Assembly: GCF_003991155.1 (NCBI RefSeq)
Contig: NZ_CP031297.1
Source of the DNA: Escherichia coli
GTDB lineage: Bacteria > Pseudomonadota > Gammaproteobacteria > Enterobacterales > Enterobacteriaceae
Direction: 5' to 3' (one strand)
DNA length: 64,000 nucleotides
The position numbers and the translations under genes were made by a program. The notes beneath the pieces were generated by a model that was not told the origin of the DNA, made no database searches, and saw only the letters and a list, made by a program, of their open reading frames with translations. How positions within the stretch are numbered: position 1 is the first letter of the stretch; each line of letters opens with the position of its first letter. Shown in pieces: positions 50,146-63,095 of this stretch.

Positions 50146-50178
50146 CTTTGCACCCGAAAAGGGCAGTTTGAGCGTTCC
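50146..50178 (+). promoter_or_regulatory. Motif B (GCACCC-GAAAA-GGGC ... TTTGAGCG), copy 7
   Basis: Stem GCCC/GGGC with GAAAA loop. Confidence 0.4.
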
Positions 50179-50267
50179 TGTTCACACAGCTCTCGTGGAA
50201 CAATCAAAGTGAGGAGGGAATACCCTCCCACTTTCTCAGAGGCCTTCATTGAGGGTTGCTGAGAAAG

Positions 50268-50397: not shown

Positions 50398-50937
50398 ATG
50401 TCTCATCTGAACAATCTCAAATCCGTAATGATCTCTCTCGCCGCCGAACATAAGCTGCCTGAAATCTACCAGGATGACATCACTACCGATGTGGAGTCTC
50501 TGGATCGATTCGATGGTTTACGTCTGGTCTGGCTGTTGCGGTCTTGCGGCAGCGTATTGGTGCCAGCGGAAGTTGGCGTTAATCCGATCTATATCACCCA
50601 TTGGTTGTGGTCTAACCACGGTCAACAGGTGGTTCCATTCTCTGTGGATACCCGCACGGGGTTGATTGAAAAAATCGACTTCGAGCAAGCTGAAAAGCTG
50701 ATCATGCAGATGCCTTGCAACCTCTCTTCATTGCAGAACAAGGAATACTTGGTTGACCAGGTAAACCGAGTATTGCAACGAGGTTGTGAAATGCGTATCT
50801 GGGGTATCTTCGAGTCTCCAAGCTCGGTGGAATCCGTTGGTGGTTGGAAAGAGTGGCAGAGCTATTTCAGCTCTACTGGGAATCGACTGATGGCCGATTT
50901 CGTTGGTAAAGCCATTCGATTCACCAACCCTCGATAA
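50398..50937 (+). CDS. Hypothetical protein
   Basis: AAGGAG SD; 179 aa. Confidence 0.75.
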   Translation: MSHLNNLKSVMISLAAEHKLPEIYQDDITTDVESLDRFDGLRLVWLLRSCGSVLVPAEVGVNPIYITHWLWSNHGQQVVPFSVDTRTGLIEKIDFEQAEKLIMQMPCNLSSLQNKEYLVDQVNRVLQRGCEMRIWGIFESPSSVESVGGWKEWQSYFSSTGNRLMADFVGKAIRFTNPR

Positions 50938-51027: not shown

Positions 51028-51528
51028 ATGAAAAACCTATCAGCTTTGGAAGCAGTTCTTGACTACGACAAACCTTCTCGACGTTTTCTTGATGAGCTCA
51101 ACGAAAACCAGATGAAGGATTTGTCCGGGGAAATCTTCGCCAAGCTCTACTGGAGCAAGCGTAATCCCCAGTGGTACGAGAAAGACACCAATCGGCTGTT
51201 TGCACGACTTCGTTGGGTTCAGCGCATCATCAAGAAGCGCTTGAAAACCGGCAAGGTTAAACCTGAACTGACAGAAAATGGTTCAGTGATGGAGCGCTTC
51301 AACTTCCCTTATGGTGACACTCTCGATTTCTTCCATCGGTACTTGCGACATCCCAAATGGGAGGTTGTGTATCAAGAATCGGGGTGCAGTGCCTTTTGGA
51401 AAAATGAAGCAACGCTTGAGCTATGCACCTACTGCGAAGGTGATGTGGTCATGATGAAGGCTCCTGATGAAGCAACCTTCTTTCGTGATTGCAATCGCCT
51501 TAGCTGGTGGTATGCAGATAACGCTTGA
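51028..51528 (+). CDS. Hypothetical protein
   Basis: AAGGAG SD; 166 aa. Confidence 0.75.
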   Translation: MKNLSALEAVLDYDKPSRRFLDELNENQMKDLSGEIFAKLYWSKRNPQWYEKDTNRLFARLRWVQRIIKKRLKTGKVKPELTENGSVMERFNFPYGDTLDFFHRYLRHPKWEVVYQESGCSAFWKNEATLELCTYCEGDVVMMKAPDEATFFRDCNRLSWWYADNA

Positions 51529-51601
51529 TCTTAATCCCTAACCAGGGGCGAACCGGCCCCTGATGGGAGCATGGTGCGCCCCATCTATGATGGAGGACGC
51601 C

Positions 51602-52486
51602 ATGTTCAAATCATCAGTATGCTCCTACGAAAACAGGGGGCCTTACGGAAACAACAAGTACCGAGGCAACTGCTCGGGCTTTATCGTTAAAGACTTCATT
51701 GAGTCTTACATGAGAAAGCCGAACGGGCTGGTGGCAGACCCAAGTGTTGGGGGTGGCTCTAGCATCGACGTTGCCAATGAACTTGGTGTCCGTTTCAAAG
51801 GGACAGACTTGCATCAGGGGTTCAACCTGTTGCGGGATGACTTCCTTTCGTTCCTCGGAGAGCCTGCACACCTGATCTGGTGGCACCCTCCTTACTGGGA
51901 CATGATCCAGTATTCAGGTAAGCAGTGGGGCGAGCCCAACAAATGGGATATGAGCCGCATGAATTTGCCTGAGTTCGTTGAAGCCCTTGAGCTGGCCGTT
52001 ATGAATATTCATGACGCCTGTGAGCGAGGAGGGCATTACGGAATCCTCATGGGAAACCTGAGGCGCGATGGGGATTATTTCAACCTGTCCAGCCTTGTGG
52101 AACGTATCGCACCTGGGAAGCTGGTGGATGAGATCATCAAAACACAGCACAACTGTGTGAGTGACCGAACTCAGTATTCCGGGAAGCTGGTGCGTATCGC
52201 CCATGAAAAGCTGTTGGTGTTTCGTCGTAACGACGTTGCCTCATCGCTCTGTCTTCTTGCTGCCGTACACCGTCGAGCAACCAATATGGTTTCGACTACG
52301 TGGAAAGCTGCAATACGCCGAACCCTACAGGGGAAAACGTTGAAGCTGGAGCAGATTTACAAAGAGATTGAACCCTACGCAAAGCATCGAGAGAACAACC
52401 ACTGGCAAGCAAAGGTCAGGCAAGTTCTTCAAGATGCCAGGTTCTTTATTCGCATCGAGGTAGGTGTCTATGCACTTGCTGAGTAG
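51602..52486 (+). CDS. Putative DNA methyltransferase (motif I-like ADPSVGGGSS, motif IV-like HPPY)
   Basis: ATG at 51602 with GGAGGA SD; motif order I then IV about 50 aa apart. Confidence 0.65.
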   Translation: MFKSSVCSYENRGPYGNNKYRGNCSGFIVKDFIESYMRKPNGLVADPSVGGGSSIDVANELGVRFKGTDLHQGFNLLRDDFLSFLGEPAHLIWWHPPYWDMIQYSGKQWGEPNKWDMSRMNLPEFVEALELAVMNIHDACERGGHYGILMGNLRRDGDYFNLSSLVERIAPGKLVDEIIKTQHNCVSDRTQYSGKLVRIAHEKLLVFRRNDVASSLCLLAAVHRRATNMVSTTWKAAIRRTLQGKTLKLEQIYKEIEPYAKHRENNHWQAKVRQVLQDARFFIRIEVGVYALAE

Positions 52487-52551: not shown

Positions 52552-52776
52552 ATGAACGTACAACTTCAAGCCAGCAACAATGTGCTGTTGGCGCAAATCG
52601 AAAGCAAAGGCCTCACTGTTGAAACGCATTGTCGCAGTGGCTTTTGTGGCATGTGCCGGGTTCGTCTACTCGAAGGTCAAGTGGCTTATGACGAGACGCC
52701 CATCGCATTTGTCAAAGAAGGGGAAGTGTTGGTTTGCTGCGCTAAAGCAAAAACCGATGTGACCTTGGAAATTTAA
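52552..52776 (+). CDS. YfaE-like 2Fe-2S ferredoxin
   Basis: 74 aa; C-x4-C-x2-C ... C pattern (HCRSGFCGMCRVRL...VLVCCAK). Confidence 0.8.
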   Translation: MNVQLQASNNVLLAQIESKGLTVETHCRSGFCGMCRVRLLEGQVAYDETPIAFVKEGEVLVCCAKAKTDVTLEI

Positions 52777-52837: not shown

Positions 52838-53227
52838 ATGTCTATCAATACCAAAGTTGAACAAATCGCATACGGTCATGCTACCGCTCTAGTGCTCAGT
52901 GAACTGGGCCAACAAGAGAATTGGTGCAAGGCTTATGAGTATTTGTCTGAGTGTGTAGAACGGGGAGACGAACCTGAGGATCTGGTCGTTTGGCAACCGT
53001 TTGAGCACTGGGAATGGAAAGACATTCTGGAGCAGATCGAGAGCGAAGCCGAGTCTCTGCTTTCGACTATTAAGTCGGTTTTAGGCTTGGCCCACAAAGG
53101 CATCATTCAGTCAGCAATTGACTGCTCTCTGGATTCGGACATGACCCAGCTTGACCTGATTGGAATGGTCGAGCTCGGAAGTGAAATCGAAGATGGGGAG
53201 TGTGCTGGAGGTGGCTATGCAGCTTAA
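52838..53227 (+). CDS. Small highly acidic protein
   Basis: GAGGAGA SD; about 20% Asp+Glu. Confidence 0.7.
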   Translation: MSINTKVEQIAYGHATALVLSELGQQENWCKAYEYLSECVERGDEPEDLVVWQPFEHWEWKDILEQIESEAESLLSTIKSVLGLAHKGIIQSAIDCSLDSDMTQLDLIGMVELGSEIEDGECAGGGYAA

Positions 53228-53669
53228 CCGATACACGGCCAGGGAGTCTGACAAAAGTCGGATACTTCGGACCATAGGCTGGTGCAAGCGCAACCACCTT
53301 ACACTTGCCGGTCTTCCATACGAGGACAATCTTGCAGGAAGTGATGGGATCAGCATAGAGATCATCACTCCTCCTGGTATGTCGCGGGAAATGTTGGAGC
53401 AAGCCGTCAGAGAGGGGTATTCAGAGCGAGATGTCGTAAGGCATCGCATTCTGGAGTGCCCTGTCGGTTGGTTCATGGAAGCTGATGGCAAGGCATTTGA
53501 TCATGAAGTGTTCCACGATTACGTGGTGGCTCATGGTTATGGCGAACCTTCCAGCGAAGCCTATGAGCTGGCGGAGCGGTGGTTCTGGCAGGGCAACGAT
53601 TATGCGTTGATAGCTGCGGAAATAGTTGCTCGTGATCTTTGTGTTCGTGATGACGAAGATGAGGACTGA
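53217..53669 (+). CDS. Hypothetical acidic protein
   Basis: ATG at 53217 with GGAGG SD; C-terminal DDEDED. Confidence 0.7.
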   Translation: MQLNRYTARESDKSRILRTIGWCKRNHLTLAGLPYEDNLAGSDGISIEIITPPGMSREMLEQAVREGYSERDVVRHRILECPVGWFMEADGKAFDHEVFHDYVVAHGYGEPSSEAYELAERWFWQGNDYALIAAEIVARDLCVRDDEDED

Positions 53670-53673
53670 TCCT

Positions 53674-53949
53674 ATGGATGCTGTAGCGCATATAGCAGCA
53701 GATAACCTTGTACCGGCATGTGGAGGTGCAGAGAAGCCGTTTACCGTTAGTGGTAGACAGTGGCTTTACTGCTATCACCCAGCCAGTGGGAGGCACTGCT
53801 ACTTAGACCTCGATAATGACCGTCCAGTCTGGCATCGAGGATTTCATCCTGCTTTTCATCCTGAGCTTGAGTTCGCTGATGAAGCTGAGTTGCTTCGACC
53901 AGTTGAGCGAAAGCCTGACCATGAAGAGCTGGAGGATTTTTACTTTTAA
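53674..53949 (+). CDS. Small hypothetical protein
   Basis: ATG at 53674 with GAGGA SD. Confidence 0.6.
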   Translation: MDAVAHIAADNLVPACGGAEKPFTVSGRQWLYCYHPASGRHCYLDLDNDRPVWHRGFHPAFHPELEFADEAELLRPVERKPDHEELEDFYF

Positions 53950-59065: not shown

Positions 59066-61519
59066 ATGCAACAAACATTAAACTTTGATCTATCAGAACA
59101 ACCCATCCCAGTGCTTTTGCGTGGGGATAAGTGGGATTCTGTTTGGTCAGAACTGACTGATAACGAGGATTTGAACTTCGTTGATGCCAGTAGAGGAACC
59201 AGTCTGTCATCGTTGATCACGTCATCGGTTGAGTCCATTCACACGGCCTTAATTGATGGGTGGACCATGATGATCGGCTATTCCAGTGGTAAAGATTCTG
59301 AAACGGTCTTGCACCTGTTCCTGATGGCCCTGATCCGGGCTGTAAGGAGTGGGGCGACCATCAGCCAGCACCACTTCATCTTGCACACTGACACACTGAT
59401 CGAAAGCCCAGAGGTAAGGTGGCTGGCGGATCAGAAACTGGCCGAGCTGGAGCGTTTCATTGCGAAGGAAAACCTTCCTCTGACCATCGTTCTAGCAAAG
59501 CCTGGGATCTCGCAGAGTTGGACGGGCCGAATCCTTACTGGGAGGGGGTTGCCTACGTTTTCCAACTCCACGGCCCGCCAGTGTAGCCAGGATTTAAAAA
59601 TCACCTCTGCCAAAAGAGCGAAGGCAGCTTATATGCGAGAGCTTCCCAAAGAGGTTCGACAGAAAGTCTGCCTTTTGCTGGGCAGTCGTGATGCTGAAAG
59701 CACTATTCGTGCGGCCAACATTGCAAAACAGCGAGGAAGCTCAGATCGCGTCATTAAGACGAAAGATGGGGGTGAGCTGTATGTGGTGAAAAACTGGTTG
59801 GCGAGTGATGTCTGGGAGTTCTTACTATCCGCTGGCATGGGCTCAGCATATCCTCTGCCAAGTTACTTGGAGAGCAATGTCACTACGGCAGAGCTTTACA
59901 AGGCGGCAACAGGGGAGTGCGTGTGGTCGGCAACAGAGAAGAAGGCCAGTGACGCCTGTGGCGCTCGCTTCGGTTGCTGGGCTTGCCAGGCTGTTGGGTT
60001 GGATAAGTCAATGGAGACGTTGCTTGCCACGGACCCTGAAAGGCATGGCTATATGTCGGGGCTGAACCGCATCCAGCGCTACTTGGCAAAACGCCGGTAC
60101 GCATGGGAAGACCGCCATCCCGTAGGTCGAACGATTTACGAGGGCGGATACATCAAAATACAGCCGGACGTTTACAGTCCTGTTTTCCTAGAACGATTGC
60201 TTCATGTCTGTTGCAGCATGGACTACATGGAGCAAAAGAGAGCTGATGAGCTGGCATACAAGCTGGCTACTGGTCAAGCAGAGGATAACGACTGGAACCG
60301 TCGAATGGCAGAGCCACAATTCCGGATCATATCGGAAGAGGCTTTAGTCCATATCGACTTCATGTGGGCCTTCCATCATTTCAATGATAAGCCTTTCCAT
60401 GCCCTGGAGATTTACCACAGGGTTTGGTCGATGGGTGATCTGGACTTGCTGGAAGACGAGCCGCAGTGTGAAACCGTTCCTCAGTCACCAATTCCGAAGC
60501 CATTGTGGTTGAAGGTTGGTCGCTGGGGCGATGGTTCGCTTTCTGATGGCTTGGCCGATCCGTTAGCGGAAATGGCTTACTTTGACGGCGGGGATGACCC
60601 GTTGGCAGCGCAAGTGATCAATACCGCAGACGGAAAGAGAAGGGTGGTTTGCTTCGCAGAAGATGATGAAGTGAAAGTCGATCCCGACTCCGCTGCGTTC
60701 ATCATCTGGAACGAATACCCGCGACTAAGGGAGTCTGTACTAAAGGGACATTATACGCCCGGTAGTGCAGCGCAGTTCTACCTTCGGTTCGGAGCAATCC
60801 AGCTTGCGAAAGGAAAAGGCGCTTTGTATCACCGTATGATGCAAAGAGGTCAAACCTACCACCAGATGGGCCTTACAGGGCTACAGACGATGGAAGGAAT
60901 CCAACAGCGCAAGGATGTCAAAGTGCTTAGCGATGCTAAGTACAAAGATCTGGTGAAGCGAAAAATCAAGGGAAGACTGGCAACGGTACGCTGGTGGGTC
61001 AACTTGCACTTAACGTTCAAGTACCATCTGCACCACCGTACTCCGACGGGGTTGTTCATCGAGAAGCAACTTGACCAGGAAGCAATGGAAGAACAGAAAC
61101 GGCATCAGGAGCGATGGTTTAACTACGTGACTGACGCGATGCTTTGTTACTCCAGCGCATTCTGTATGAGCGTCATGGAAGGGCGAGAGGGGAGCGGAAA
61201 CGCCAACATTCGTCGTTACATGGCCGCGACCAGAAGGAAGGCTTATACGGCCCTCTGCGAGCTCTTGGACAATACTGACGCCCAGTGGATGAATGATGTG
61301 GTCCAGAGTGCCGTAGGGCAGTATGAGGCGATACAGGCAGCCCTAACCGAAGGTTCCGCGCTTGCTATCTATCTCGACTGGATCAACCTACTGTCAAAAC
61401 GCCATCCAGCCTCTTTGGAGCGACATGTCAGAACGATGATCAAGGCGGTTCAACGCTTACATCGCCGCGACGACACAGAGTTGCAAAGAGGACAGCAAGG
61501 CTTGTCCTTGGCCGCATAA
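59066..61519 (+). CDS. PP-loop ATP pyrophosphatase family protein (PAPS reductase/DndC-like N-domain) with long C-terminal extension
   Basis: 817 aa; PP-loop IGYSSGKDS; Cys cluster CGARFGCWAC; AGGAGG SD. Confidence 0.85.
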   Translation: MQQTLNFDLSEQPIPVLLRGDKWDSVWSELTDNEDLNFVDASRGTSLSSLITSSVESIHTALIDGWTMMIGYSSGKDSETVLHLFLMALIRAVRSGATISQHHFILHTDTLIESPEVRWLADQKLAELERFIAKENLPLTIVLAKPGISQSWTGRILTGRGLPTFSNSTARQCSQDLKITSAKRAKAAYMRELPKEVRQKVCLLLGSRDAESTIRAANIAKQRGSSDRVIKTKDGGELYVVKNWLASDVWEFLLSAGMGSAYPLPSYLESNVTTAELYKAATGECVWSATEKKASDACGARFGCWACQAVGLDKSMETLLATDPERHGYMSGLNRIQRYLAKRRYAWEDRHPVGRTIYEGGYIKIQPDVYSPVFLERLLHVCCSMDYMEQKRADELAYKLATGQAEDNDWNRRMAEPQFRIISEEALVHIDFMWAFHHFNDKPFHALEIYHRVWSMGDLDLLEDEPQCETVPQSPIPKPLWLKVGRWGDGSLSDGLADPLAEMAYFDGGDDPLAAQVINTADGKRRVVCFAEDDEVKVDPDSAAFIIWNEYPRLRESVLKGHYTPGSAAQFYLRFGAIQLAKGKGALYHRMMQRGQTYHQMGLTGLQTMEGIQQRKDVKVLSDAKYKDLVKRKIKGRLATVRWWVNLHLTFKYHLHHRTPTGLFIEKQLDQEAMEEQKRHQERWFNYVTDAMLCYSSAFCMSVMEGREGSGNANIRRYMAATRRKAYTALCELLDNTDAQWMNDVVQSAVGQYEAIQAALTEGSALAIYLDWINLLSKRHPASLERHVRTMIKAVQRLHRRDDTELQRGQQGLSLAA

Positions 61520-61995: not shown

Positions 61996-62601
61996 ATGTC
62001 TAATTCAAATTTCGGCTTTCTAGCTCTGGCCTTGCGCCAACGCCTGATCAAACGCTGGTCACTGATGCACTCTGTTCAACCGGAGTCTGTGTTGGAACAC
62101 AGCGCTGTTGTTACCCTGCTTTCCTACCTGGCTGGCAATATTGCCATTCAGCAAGGGAAGTCGGTGGATCTGGCAGTCATGCTTGCTCATGCTTCGTTGC
62201 ATGATGCAGCCGAGGTTCTCTGTTCGGATGTTGTAACACCGGTCAAGAAAGCAAACGCTGTTTTGCAGCGTGAGTTTGAACGACTGGAAAAGGCCGCAGA
62301 GGACAAACTCATCCAGACTCTTCCCGAAGAACTCCAGGATGCAGTCGCCATAGCCTTCGCTCCCGGTGGCTATGAACAATCACTGGTTAAGGCCTGTGAT
62401 ACCTACTCCGCTTACATCAAGTGCAAACTTGAGGTGGCCGCAGGTAATGGCCTTGAGTTCCAGGATGCTCTCAGCAAAATGGAACGTGTTGTTGCTCAGG
62501 TGAAATCGGACTTCCCGGAAATCGACGCTCTGGACAAATGGTTTGGTAACGGACTCGGCCATTCAGTAGATAAACTGCTGGCAGGGGGTAACGATGACTA
62601 A
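61996..62601 (+). CDS. HD-domain 5'-deoxynucleotidase, YfbR-like
   Basis: Aligns along its length with E. coli YfbR as recalled: RWSLM...SVLEHS...SLHDAAEVL...TPVKK...LVKACDTYSAYIKC. Confidence 0.85.
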   Translation: MSNSNFGFLALALRQRLIKRWSLMHSVQPESVLEHSAVVTLLSYLAGNIAIQQGKSVDLAVMLAHASLHDAAEVLCSDVVTPVKKANAVLQREFERLEKAAEDKLIQTLPEELQDAVAIAFAPGGYEQSLVKACDTYSAYIKCKLEVAAGNGLEFQDALSKMERVVAQVKSDFPEIDALDKWFGNGLGHSVDKLLAGGNDD

Positions 62602-62876: not shown

Positions 62877-63095
62877 ATGGTGGTGATCATCGTAAACACA
62901 GGACACTATGAGTTTATCGGCCTTGGTGAGACCCACGGACAAGCCACAGAAGGGCTTTTGAAACGCTGGGACGAACACTGCGAACGTAATCCGGATGCTG
63001 AGTCTGGTTACATGCAGGAGCTGATAGAAGAAGGAAGCGCACAAGTTGTCGAGATGGAGCCCGGCTCCGCCGTAATTTACGGACTTGACGGCTAA
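62877..63095 (+). CDS. Small hypothetical protein (72 aa)
   Basis: ATG at 62877 with AGGAGA SD. Confidence 0.5.
   Translation: MVVIIVNTGHYEFIGLGETHGQATEGLLKRWDEHCERNPDAESGYMQELIEEGSAQVVEMEPGSAVIYGLDG

What the first reader, a model, noticed from the sequence alone, without database searches (positions are those of the whole stretch)
52838..53669. Two small highly acidic proteins as candidate DNA mimics
The products of 52838..53227 (about 20% Asp+Glu) and 53217..53669 (C-terminal DDEDED) are small and strongly acidic, in the same block as a methyltransferase. This composition is typical of DNA-mimic anti-restriction proteins, but no specific family motif was recognised.
Basis: inference. Interest (0 to 1): 0.4.

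Follow-up and report, generated by a model that had tools for sequence, protein, structure and literature searches.

The report
Coupled acidic gene pair, IncC plasmid
Two overlapping small genes on a multidrug-resistance IncC conjugative plasmid are real, conserved and switched on together with the transfer genes, and the first defines an unnamed family of very acidic helical proteins on mobile elements, but whether either blocks restriction enzymes by mimicking DNA remains untested.

Summary
The window is IncC (IncA/C2) plasmid backbone. The two ORFs are vcrx102 (A, 52838..53227) and vcrx103 (B, 53217..53669) of pVCR94, annotated "hypothetical" everywhere.

- A is 129 aa, 20% Asp+Glu, net -20, pI 4.06, the most acidic of 42 backbone proteins.
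- B is 150 aa and ends in DDEDED.
- Both lie in one published AcaCD-activated operon (vcrx098-103) with the dcm3 methyltransferase.
- Both are under purifying selection (dN/dS 0.03-0.17).

New here:
- A founds an undescribed family (104 clusters) whose acidity is conserved (mean net -15).
- A's model is confident (pLDDT 95), a four-helix fold matching no solved structure.
- B is bipartite: a net-neutral N-domain (basic first 28 residues) and an acidic C-domain plus tail.
- A and B are functionally linked. An 11-nt overlap is conserved, a marine element fuses A to B's C-domain, and pAQU-type plasmids pair A with B's N-domain alone.
- Neighbours elsewhere include hde-like, ArdB/KlcA, RadC and orphan-methylase genes. 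One A-domain sits in an ART polyvalent protein.

Most likely this is a conjugation-induced establishment or anti-defence module, with A as an acidic decoy. DNA mimicry is plausible for A, weak for B and untestable here. Published genetics argue against a major anti-type-I role.

The parts
50146..50174 (+). AcaCD-binding motif (promoter of the vcrx098-vcrx103 operon); contains TTTGCACCCGAAAAGGGCAG
   Evidence: Position transferred from pVCR94 75267-75295 (Table S3 of PMC4207636) using the offset of the vcrx098 start. The sequence was read. A similar TTTTGCACCCCAAAAG box lies at the predicted vcrx114 site.
50398..50937 (+). vcrx098, first gene of the operon (179 aa, no family)
   Evidence: Identical to the pVCR94 protein.
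51028..51528 (+). vcrx099 (166 aa, no family)
   Evidence: Homologue kept in the Vibrio element L020.
51563..52486 (+). dcm3/vcrx100 DNA methyltransferase (N6_N4_Mtase + DpnI_C-like wHTH). RefSeq starts it at 51602.
   Evidence: Pfam hits. Named dcm3 = vcrx100 in PMC7498323. RefSeq CDS.
52552..52776 (+). vcrx101, YfaE-like 2Fe-2S ferredoxin (74 aa)
   Evidence: Fer2 E=1.5e-10. RefSeq 'yfaE'. Syntenic in pAsa4 and pAQU2.
52838..53227 (+). ORF A = vcrx102: 129-aa acidic four-helix protein, founding member of an undescribed family
   Evidence: Composition. pVCR94 coordinates 77949..78338. Family of 104 representatives. AF2 pLDDT 95.4. dN/dS 0.12-0.17.
53217..53227 (+). 11-nt overlap ATGCAGCTTAA (B start inside A stop region): translational coupling
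   Evidence: Read. Identical junction in pAsa4 and the Edwardsiella plasmid.
53217..53477 (+). ORF B = vcrx103, N-terminal domain (aa 1-87): net charge 0, basic first helix. Cys23, His76 and Cys81 are invariant among the six full-length orthologues aligned.
   Evidence: Occurs alone after A in pAQU2 and Vibrio elements.
53478..53645 (+). ORF B C-terminal domain (aa 88-143): acidic three-helix domain, motif FHDYVVAHGYGEPS...DYA.IAAEIV
   Evidence: pLDDT 85-91 for this part. Fused to an A domain in P0125, E=1.8e-14. Stand-alone in P0139.
53646..53669 (+). ORF B acidic tail RDDEDED plus stop
   Evidence: An acidic tail is kept in the full-length orthologues aligned: DDDDDD, DDDED, EDNDD, EDEDDD.

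Best explanation
vcrx102 (A) and vcrx103 (B) are a translationally coupled, co-functioning pair. They form the distal end of the AcaCD-activated vcrx098-vcrx103 operon of IncC plasmids. They are silent without the conjugation master activator and strongly induced with it.

I infer that they are made in a burst in transfer-competent donors and in new transconjugants. This follows the published behaviour of the neighbouring hde operon.

The most likely role is an accessory establishment or anti-defence function. A is a compact, soluble, very acidic four-helix protein. It probably acts as a stoichiometric decoy or inhibitor that occupies a positively charged, probably nucleic-acid-binding, surface of a host protein. 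B, through its C-terminal domain, works with A. B's Cys/His-bearing N-domain with its basic first helix supplies a second activity or target contact.

Shown here or in published work: gene reality, selection, regulation, conserved acidity of A, a fold with no match among solved structures, the A-B linkage, and mobile-element-restricted neighbourhoods.

Inferred: expression in the recipient, protein-protein inhibition, an anti-defence role, the identity of the target, and DNA mimicry.
For: - Identity and regulation. The window is IncC backbone: 703 plasmid hits, 624 at 99% identity or more. vcrx102 and vcrx103 coordinates match exactly. The AcaCD ChIP peak and motif lie upstream of vcrx098, and the predicted operon is vcrx098-vcrx103. 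Expression in wild type, delta-acaCD and complemented strains was 541 / 2 / 2377 for vcrx102 and 396 / 14 / 2104 for vcrx103 (PMC4207636 Table S3 and Dataset S1).
- Precedent. The adjacent AcaCD-dependent hde operon must be expressed in the recipient for anti-restriction (PMC7498323).
- Real genes. dN/dS is 0.03-0.17.
- Acidity of A is conserved across 60 homologues, and A is the extreme among plasmid proteins.
- Structure. The A model is confident (pLDDT 95.4) and has no PDB neighbour.
- A-B linkage. The 11-nt overlap is conserved in IncC, pAsa4 and the Edwardsiella plasmid. P0125 fuses an A domain to B's C-domain. A is followed by B's N-domain alone in pAQU2 and Vibrio elements. A-B stay adjacent in the Edwardsiella plasmid, which lacks the methylase and ferredoxin.
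- Neighbourhoods of distant A homologues include vcrx089-like AAA_5/CbbQ_C, DUF3150, VWA, RadC and Toprim. Others include PF03230 Antirestrict, TraT, RadC and Topo III. A B-C-domain protein lies next to a methylase and a weak DarA_C hit.
- One A-domain lies inside a 627-aa protein with ART-PolyVal. That class is proposed to be delivered early against host defences (PMC5512222).
Against: - There is no experimental phenotype for either gene.
- The TnSeq screen for entry into a type I R-M+/CRISPR+ V. cholerae strain reported only vcrx089-093. Delta(vcrx089-090) alone lowers transfer 25-fold with vcrx102-103 present.
- IS elements interrupt ORF A in at least two natural plasmids, so the pair is dispensable for maintenance.
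- No sequence or fold relationship to any known anti-defence protein was found.
- Guilt by association in mobile-element cargo regions is weak evidence.
- The most conserved part of A is a specific motif, WxPFE ... AKxGIxxxAIDxxLDSDxNxLDMxxMVExG, rather than a diffuse charge pattern.
- B is not uniformly acidic.
Confidence: 0.4

Rival explanations
1. The strict first-reader reading. [quoted passage not shown]
For: - A has 26 acidic and 6 basic residues, net -20, pI 4.06. Ocr has 34 acidic and 6 basic in 116 aa (PMC4872106 abstract).
- The acidity is conserved in the family.
- A is co-regulated with a methylase and lies near the hde anti-restriction genes.
- An ArdB/KlcA gene is a neighbour of a homologue.
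Against: - No ArdA, Ocr or Antirestrict profile match.
- No fold match to any solved mimic.
- B's conserved N-domain is neutral overall and basic at its start.
- vcrx089-090 account for type I evasion in pVCR94 and pKAZ3, with vcrx102-103 unable to substitute.
- The charge geometry was not testable.
Confidence: 0.15
2. A and B are accessory subunits of the operon's DNA-modification machinery (dcm3 methyltransferase plus YfaE-like ferredoxin). They could, for example, regulate or target modification of incoming DNA.
For: - The gene order methylase - ferredoxin - A - B is conserved in IncC, pAsa4 and pAQU2. Methylase - A - B is conserved in Vibrio chromosomal elements.
- All lie in a single AcaCD operon.
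- B has invariant Cys23, His76, Cys81 and Cys142 among six orthologues.
Against: - The Edwardsiella IncC-like plasmid keeps vcrx098-A-B but lacks vcrx099, the methylase and the ferredoxin.
- Most distant A homologues have no adjacent methylase.
- The A-B(C-domain) fusion lies beside an MvaT-like gene, not a methylase.
Confidence: 0.2
3. The A-domain is a delivery or adaptor module, for example a T4SS recruitment or chaperone domain, that carries variable partner domains or proteins such as B into the recipient during conjugation.
For: - A-domains are fused to many different unannotated N- or C-terminal extensions. Of the ten fused proteins scanned, only ART-PolyVal (P0081) was a confident Pfam hit, with one weak NNH2 hit (P0096) besides.
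- One fusion is the ART-PolyVal polyvalent protein. Polyvalent proteins are proposed to travel with the DNA.
- A belongs to the AcaCD transfer regulon.
Against: - No similarity to known T4SS signals or adaptor domains.
- Known T4SS C-terminal signals are typically basic rather than acidic. This rests on my own knowledge and was not tested.
- Several fusion calls may be gene-calling artefacts in metagenomes.
Confidence: 0.12
4. A-B is a toxin-antitoxin-like pair, with acidic upstream A neutralising downstream B, that contributes to plasmid stability.
For: Two small overlapping genes. The upstream product is acidic. The downstream product is more conserved.
Against: - Expression is essentially off without AcaCD (2 and 14 units), unlike autoregulated TA loci.
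- B is itself acidic overall.
- No TA family hit.
- A natural A to B-C-domain fusion exists.
- An IS3 insertion disrupts A while B stays intact in pVA833-165.
Confidence: 0.05

Closest known systems
ArdA (PF07275) and T7 Ocr (PF08684): DNA-mimic inhibitors of type I R-M
   Same: Small, soluble and strongly net-negative with very few basic residues. Encoded on mobile elements and expressed around the time of entry.
vcrx089-vcrx090 (hde) anti-restriction genes of the same plasmid (Roy et al. 2020, PMC7498323)
   Same: Same backbone and same AcaCD regulon. Homologues co-occur on other elements. Unknown mechanism and no known anti-restriction domain.
   Different: Unrelated proteins: an AAA_5/CbbQ_C ATPase plus a 302-aa partner. 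They have a demonstrated phenotype, whereas vcrx102-103 have none.
Domains of polyvalent proteins of phages and conjugative elements (Iyer et al. 2017, PMC5512222)
   Same: An A-like domain is embedded after an ART-PolyVal domain in P0081. The family is restricted to mobile elements and shows modular fusion behaviour.
   Different: In IncC, A is a stand-alone gene. I found no mention of a matching domain in the passages of that paper I searched. Only one such fusion was found.
ArdB/KlcA (PF03230 Antirestrict)
   Same: Small conjugative-element protein. A gene of this family lies about 2.5 kb from a fused A homologue.
   Different: No homology. ArdB/KlcA is not a DNA mimic and has a different fold.

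Membership tests
ArdA (PF07275) | Match to the family sequence profile | tested here: not met
   No Pfam hit at E<=0.1 for A or B, nor for any of 60 A-family members.
ArdA / Ocr / other solved DNA mimics | Fold similarity to a solved mimic structure | tested here: not met
DNA-mimic proteins (functional class) | Strong net negative charge with few basic residues | tested here: met
   A has net -20 and pI 4.06, and this is conserved in the family at mean net -15. For B it is met only in residues 88-150. Residues 1-87 are net 0.
DNA-mimic proteins (functional class) | Surface carboxylates spaced like the phosphates of B-DNA | not testable with these tools
   Structure prediction returns no coordinates and no multimer prediction is available.
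DNA-mimic proteins (functional class) | Competes with DNA for the binding site of a DNA-binding protein; alleviates restriction in vivo | not testable with these tools
   This needs experiments. Indirect published data do not show a role.
ArdB/KlcA (PF03230), ArdC, DarA, Gam and other Pfam/PHROG/NCBIfam anti-defence families | Match to the family profile | tested here: not met
   no hits. PADLOC, a library of defence systems, also gave none.
AcaCD regulon of IncA/C plasmids | AcaCD box upstream of the operon and AcaCD-dependent transcription | tested here: met
   The box sequence is present at window 50146-50174. ChIP-exo peak, operon call and RNA-seq values come from PMC4207636.
Type II toxin-antitoxin pair | Known toxin or antitoxin domain; constitutive autoregulated expression | tested here: not met
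   No family hit. Expression depends on AcaCD. A fused to the B C-domain exists.
Polyvalent-protein domain repertoire | Occurs as one domain of a multidomain effector protein with hallmark PolyVal domains | tested here: inconclusive
   One case: P0081 has ART-PolyVal at residues 7-132 and the A-like domain at 152-263. It comes from a single soil-metagenome contig whose neighbours are unannotated.

The most novel reading that the evidence does not exclude
The A-domain defines a new, widespread family of mobile-element proteins with a fold that matches no solved structure. It acts as an acidic decoy against a host nucleic-acid-binding defence or nucleoid protein. It is deployed either alone, with the bipartite partner B, or fused to variable effector domains, including in polyvalent proteins. 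On this reading vcrx102-103 would be a second, mechanistically new anti-defence module of IncC plasmids alongside hde.
Probability: 0.2. Interest if true: 0.65.

Novelty: new variant of a known kind. Interest (0 to 1): 0.4.

Why it matters
IncC plasmids are major vehicles of multidrug resistance with a very broad host range. Only part of their ability to evade host defences has been explained, by hde (vcrx089-093) and the dcm methylases.

If this pair is a second anti-defence or establishment module, induced by the conjugation master activator and conserved in the related MOBH plasmid families examined here (IncC, pAsa4 and pAQU2), it would help explain that host range. It would also add a new protein family to the small list of acidic decoy inhibitors.

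Even without a function, three results are usable for annotating several hundred sequenced plasmids. A belongs to an un-named family of at least 100 clusters. B is a two-domain protein. The two are linked by a Rosetta-stone fusion.

Tried and rejected
- Sequence families. Pfam, PHROGs, NCBIfam, PADLOC and PDB sequence searches gave nothing for A, B or the neighbours.
- Fold searches.
  - BFVD gave only weak matches (E of 0.016 or worse) to roughly 80-aa uncharacterised phage proteins.
  - The afdb50 library was unavailable.
- B homologues. Two searches, one protein and one profile, found only 14-16 close relatives. The B model is therefore shallow (pLDDT 68) and its N-domain fold is not interpretable.
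- Metal-binding and clamp motifs, both checked by eye and both dropped.
  - The conserved loop D95-CSLDSDMTQL-D106 looked EF-hand-like. It fails the PROSITE EF-hand pattern as I recall it at either register, and the Edwardsiella orthologue reads ANGALDTNLTQLD.
  - 'QLDLI' resembles a beta-clamp motif, but the Q is not conserved in the family consensus.
- Collection scans.
  - The genome-contig scan returned only 6 loci.
  - The IMG/VR scan returned none.
  - tblastn against cultured phages returned only a misfiled IncC plasmid.
- Literature.
  - The TnSeq table of Roy et al. 2020 is not held, so per-gene insertion indices for vcrx102/103 could not be read.
  - No paper mentions vcrx101-104 or the RefSeq accessions.
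- Leading region. I could not establish whether this block enters the recipient early. oriT lies elsewhere on the plasmid, and I found no statement of transfer polarity.

Full report
**What the window is**

The 1.9 kb around the finding matches 703 plasmids. Of these, 624 match at 99% identity or more, and nearly all are typed IncC, MOBH, MPF_F and conjugative. The window runs from traI/traD through traN and the hde operon (AAA ATPase, ssb, bet, exo). It continues through DUF3150/VWA, the block of interest and a 541-aa cytosine methyltransferase.

In the reference plasmid pVCR94 the two ORFs are vcrx102 (77949..78338) and vcrx103 (78328..78774). The 307-aa methyltransferase two genes upstream is dcm3 = vcrx100. 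The 541-aa one downstream is dcm1 = vcrx109 (PMC7498323).

**Checking the observation**

| | ORF A (52838..53227) | ORF B (53217..53669) |
|---|---|---|
| Length | 129 aa | 150 aa |
| Asp+Glu | 26 | 30 |
| Lys+Arg | 6 | 16 |
| Net charge | -20 | -14 |
| pI | 4.06 | 4.68 |

B ends in RDDEDED.

- A is the most negatively charged per residue of 42 annotated backbone proteins. B ranks third, about level with a 283-aa backbone protein.
- Both genes have good ribosome-binding sites and overlap by 11 nt.
- Against the pVCR94 and Edwardsiella orthologues, dN/dS is 0.12-0.17 for A and 0.03-0.09 for B. Both are therefore real, constrained proteins.

B's charge is not uniform. Residues 1-87 are net 0, with the first 28 at +5. 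Residues 88-143 are net -9, and the 7-residue tail is net -5.

**Regulation (published data, read here)**

Carraro et al. 2014 (PMC4207636) mapped an AcaCD ChIP-exo peak and motif at pVCR94 75267-75295. They predicted one operon, vcrx098-vcrx103 (Table S3). The same sequence, TTTGCACCCGAAAAGGGCAG, lies at window 50146-50174, about 225 bp upstream of vcrx098.

Their Dataset S1 gives these expression values:

| Gene | Wild type | delta-acaCD | Complemented |
|---|---|---|---|
| vcrx102 | 541 | 2 | 2377 |
| vcrx103 | 396 | 14 | 2104 |

The pair is therefore expressed, and only when the conjugation master activator is present. No terminator-like site follows B.

For the neighbouring AcaCD-dependent hde operon, Roy et al. 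2020 showed that expression in the recipient, not the donor, is what matters. That vcrx098-103 behaves in the same way is my inference.

**ORF A**

A has no hit in Pfam, PHROGs, NCBIfam, PADLOC or PDB sequences. This holds even when all 60 aligned family members are scanned one by one.

An exhaustive HMMER search of 1.84 billion cluster representatives found 104 relatives, 45 of them at E<=1e-10.
- Across 60 full-length members (24-91% identity) the acidity is maintained. The means are 19% D+E, net -15 and pI 4.28.
- The best-conserved sequence is WxPFE plus AKxGIxxxAIDxxLDSDxNxLDMxxMVExG.

With this alignment AlphaFold2 gives a confident model: pLDDT 95.4, pTM 0.82. It has helices at residues 6-19, 26-42, 60-94 and 107-124, plus a minimal hairpin.
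- BFVD gives only weak matches to small uncharacterised phage proteins.

So A has a fold with no match among solved structures and belongs to an undescribed family.

**ORF B**

Two searches found only 14-16 relatives, all from IncA/C-like elements. The model is mediocre overall (pLDDT 68), but residues 80-147 are good. There is no informative fold match.

Comparative data show that B has two domains.
- An HMM of B detects its C-terminal domain (positions 88-143) fused directly after an A domain in P0125. This is a 187-aa protein on TARA marine contigs (E=1.8e-14).
- The same C-domain stands alone in P0139.
- In pAQU2 and in Vibrio albus, V. sinensis and V. mytili chromosomal elements, the gene after A encodes only B's N-domain (94 aa, pI 5.9).
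- Cys23, His76, Cys81 and Cys142 are invariant among the six full-length orthologues aligned.
- The acidic tail is present in the full-length orthologues.

**A-B linkage and synteny**

The junction ATGCAGCTTAA is identical in IncC, pAsa4 and an Edwardsiella plasmid. The order methylase - YfaE-like ferredoxin - A - B - small ORF - vcrx106-like is conserved in three plasmids:
- IncC
- pAsa4, with A at 58% and B at 75% identity
- pAQU2

All three are MOBH/MPF_F plasmids. The Edwardsiella IncC-like plasmid has vcrx098 - A - B without vcrx099, the methylase or the ferredoxin. The pair is therefore a unit in its own right. Together with the Rosetta-stone fusion, this supports the view that A and B work together.

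**Neighbourhoods of distant A homologues**
- One contig carries a vcrx089-like AAA_5/CbbQ_C ATPase, DUF3150, VWA, RadC and a Toprim primase-like gene.
- Another carries topoisomerase III, CsrA, TraT, a PF03230 Antirestrict (ArdB/KlcA) gene and RadC.
- The A-B(C-domain) fusion follows an MvaT-like gene in an island with DUF4942 and VRR_NUC.
- The stand-alone B-C-domain protein lies by an N6_N4 methylase and a weak DarA_C hit.
- One member is in a phage-like contig with a small terminase.
- One A-like domain follows an ART-PolyVal domain in a 627-aa protein. Polyvalent proteins are proposed to be early effectors delivered with the invading DNA (PMC5512222).
- No relatives were found in IMG/VR or in cultured phages.

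**Evidence against a major anti-type-I role**
- In pVCR94, deleting vcrx089-090 alone lowers transfer into type I R-M+ V. cholerae 25-fold. Removing hsdR restores it. The TnSeq screen reported only the hde locus.
- pKAZ3 behaves similarly.
- vcrx102-103 were intact in those experiments and did not compensate.
- Two natural plasmids carry IS elements inside ORF A.

**Interpretation**

The best-supported reading (confidence about 0.4) is a conjugation-induced, dispensable establishment or anti-defence module. In it the acidic A protein is a decoy or inhibitor, and B is its two-domain partner.

| Rival reading | Confidence |
|---|---|
| Accessory role for the co-transcribed methylase and ferredoxin | about 0.2 |
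| Strict DNA mimicry of type I R-M substrates (possible for A, unlikely for B) | about 0.15 |
| Delivery or adaptor domain | about 0.12 |
| Toxin-antitoxin pair | about 0.05 |

The defining test for mimicry is the charge geometry on a monomer or dimer surface, together with restriction alleviation. Neither could be run here.

**Novelty and score**

The genes themselves are catalogued as hypothetical, and their regulation is published. The following appear to be new:
- the size of the A family and its conserved acidity
- a fold for A that matches no solved structure
- the two-domain nature of B
- the fusion evidence linking A and B

If the decoy reading is right, this is a new variant of a known kind, namely acidic inhibitor proteins of mobile elements. 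I score interest at 0.4.

Noticed in passing
window 53674..53949 (+): An intact 91-aa ORF starts 5 nt after the stop of ORF B. It reads MDAVAHIAADNL... and ends in the acidic, aromatic tail ...EELEDFYF. RefSeq does not annotate it on several IncC plasmids, and pVCR94 instead annotates vcrx104 on the opposite strand, which is barely expressed. The ORF is intact in pVCR94 but absent from the Edwardsiella plasmid. The tail resembles the acidic C-terminal tips of SSB-type proteins; that resemblance rests on my own knowledge and was not tested.
   Followed up: partly
window 62877..63095 (+): A second small, very acidic backbone protein: 72 aa, net -11, pI 4.25, charge per residue -0.153, almost equal to ORF A. 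It lies downstream of the yfbR-like 5'-deoxynucleotidase and was not examined further.
   Followed up: no
window 52552..52776, 59066..61519 and 61996..62601; L029 7688..7918: The backbone carries a YfaE-like 2Fe-2S ferredoxin inside the methylase operon, an 817-aa 'PAPS reductase' protein and a YfbR-like 5'-deoxynucleotidase. pAQU2 additionally has a TusA-like sulfurtransferase in the syntenic block. Together these hint at an uncharacterised redox- or sulfur-dependent nucleotide or DNA-modification activity.
   Followed up: no
L001 9439..11060 (CP093454.1); NZ_CP132625.1 (H1): Natural IncC plasmids carry an IS3-family element (pVA833-165) or ISVsa5 inserted in this stretch. In pVA833-165 the IS3 splits ORF A and leaves ORF B intact. 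ORF A is therefore dispensable for plasmid persistence.
   Followed up: partly
L020 7392..8057 (also L021, L022): Vibrio chromosomal elements carry a second, diverged A-like paralogue (HMM positions 1-93) fused to an unannotated C-terminal domain of about 100 aa. It lies about 1 kb downstream of the A / B-N-domain pair. In the same elements the first A copy has an 85-aa N-terminal extension.
   Followed up: partly
window 50205..50232: A GC-rich hairpin (GGAGGGAATACCCTCCC) lies between the AcaCD box and the vcrx098 start codon, in what is presumably the 5' UTR. The terminator scan picked it up only on the minus strand.
   Followed up: no
AB571791.1 in the 'phages' collection: A 127.7-kb Salmonella Typhimurium record filed among phages carries an identical copy of ORF A. 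It looks like an IncC plasmid or island sequence rather than a phage.
   Followed up: no
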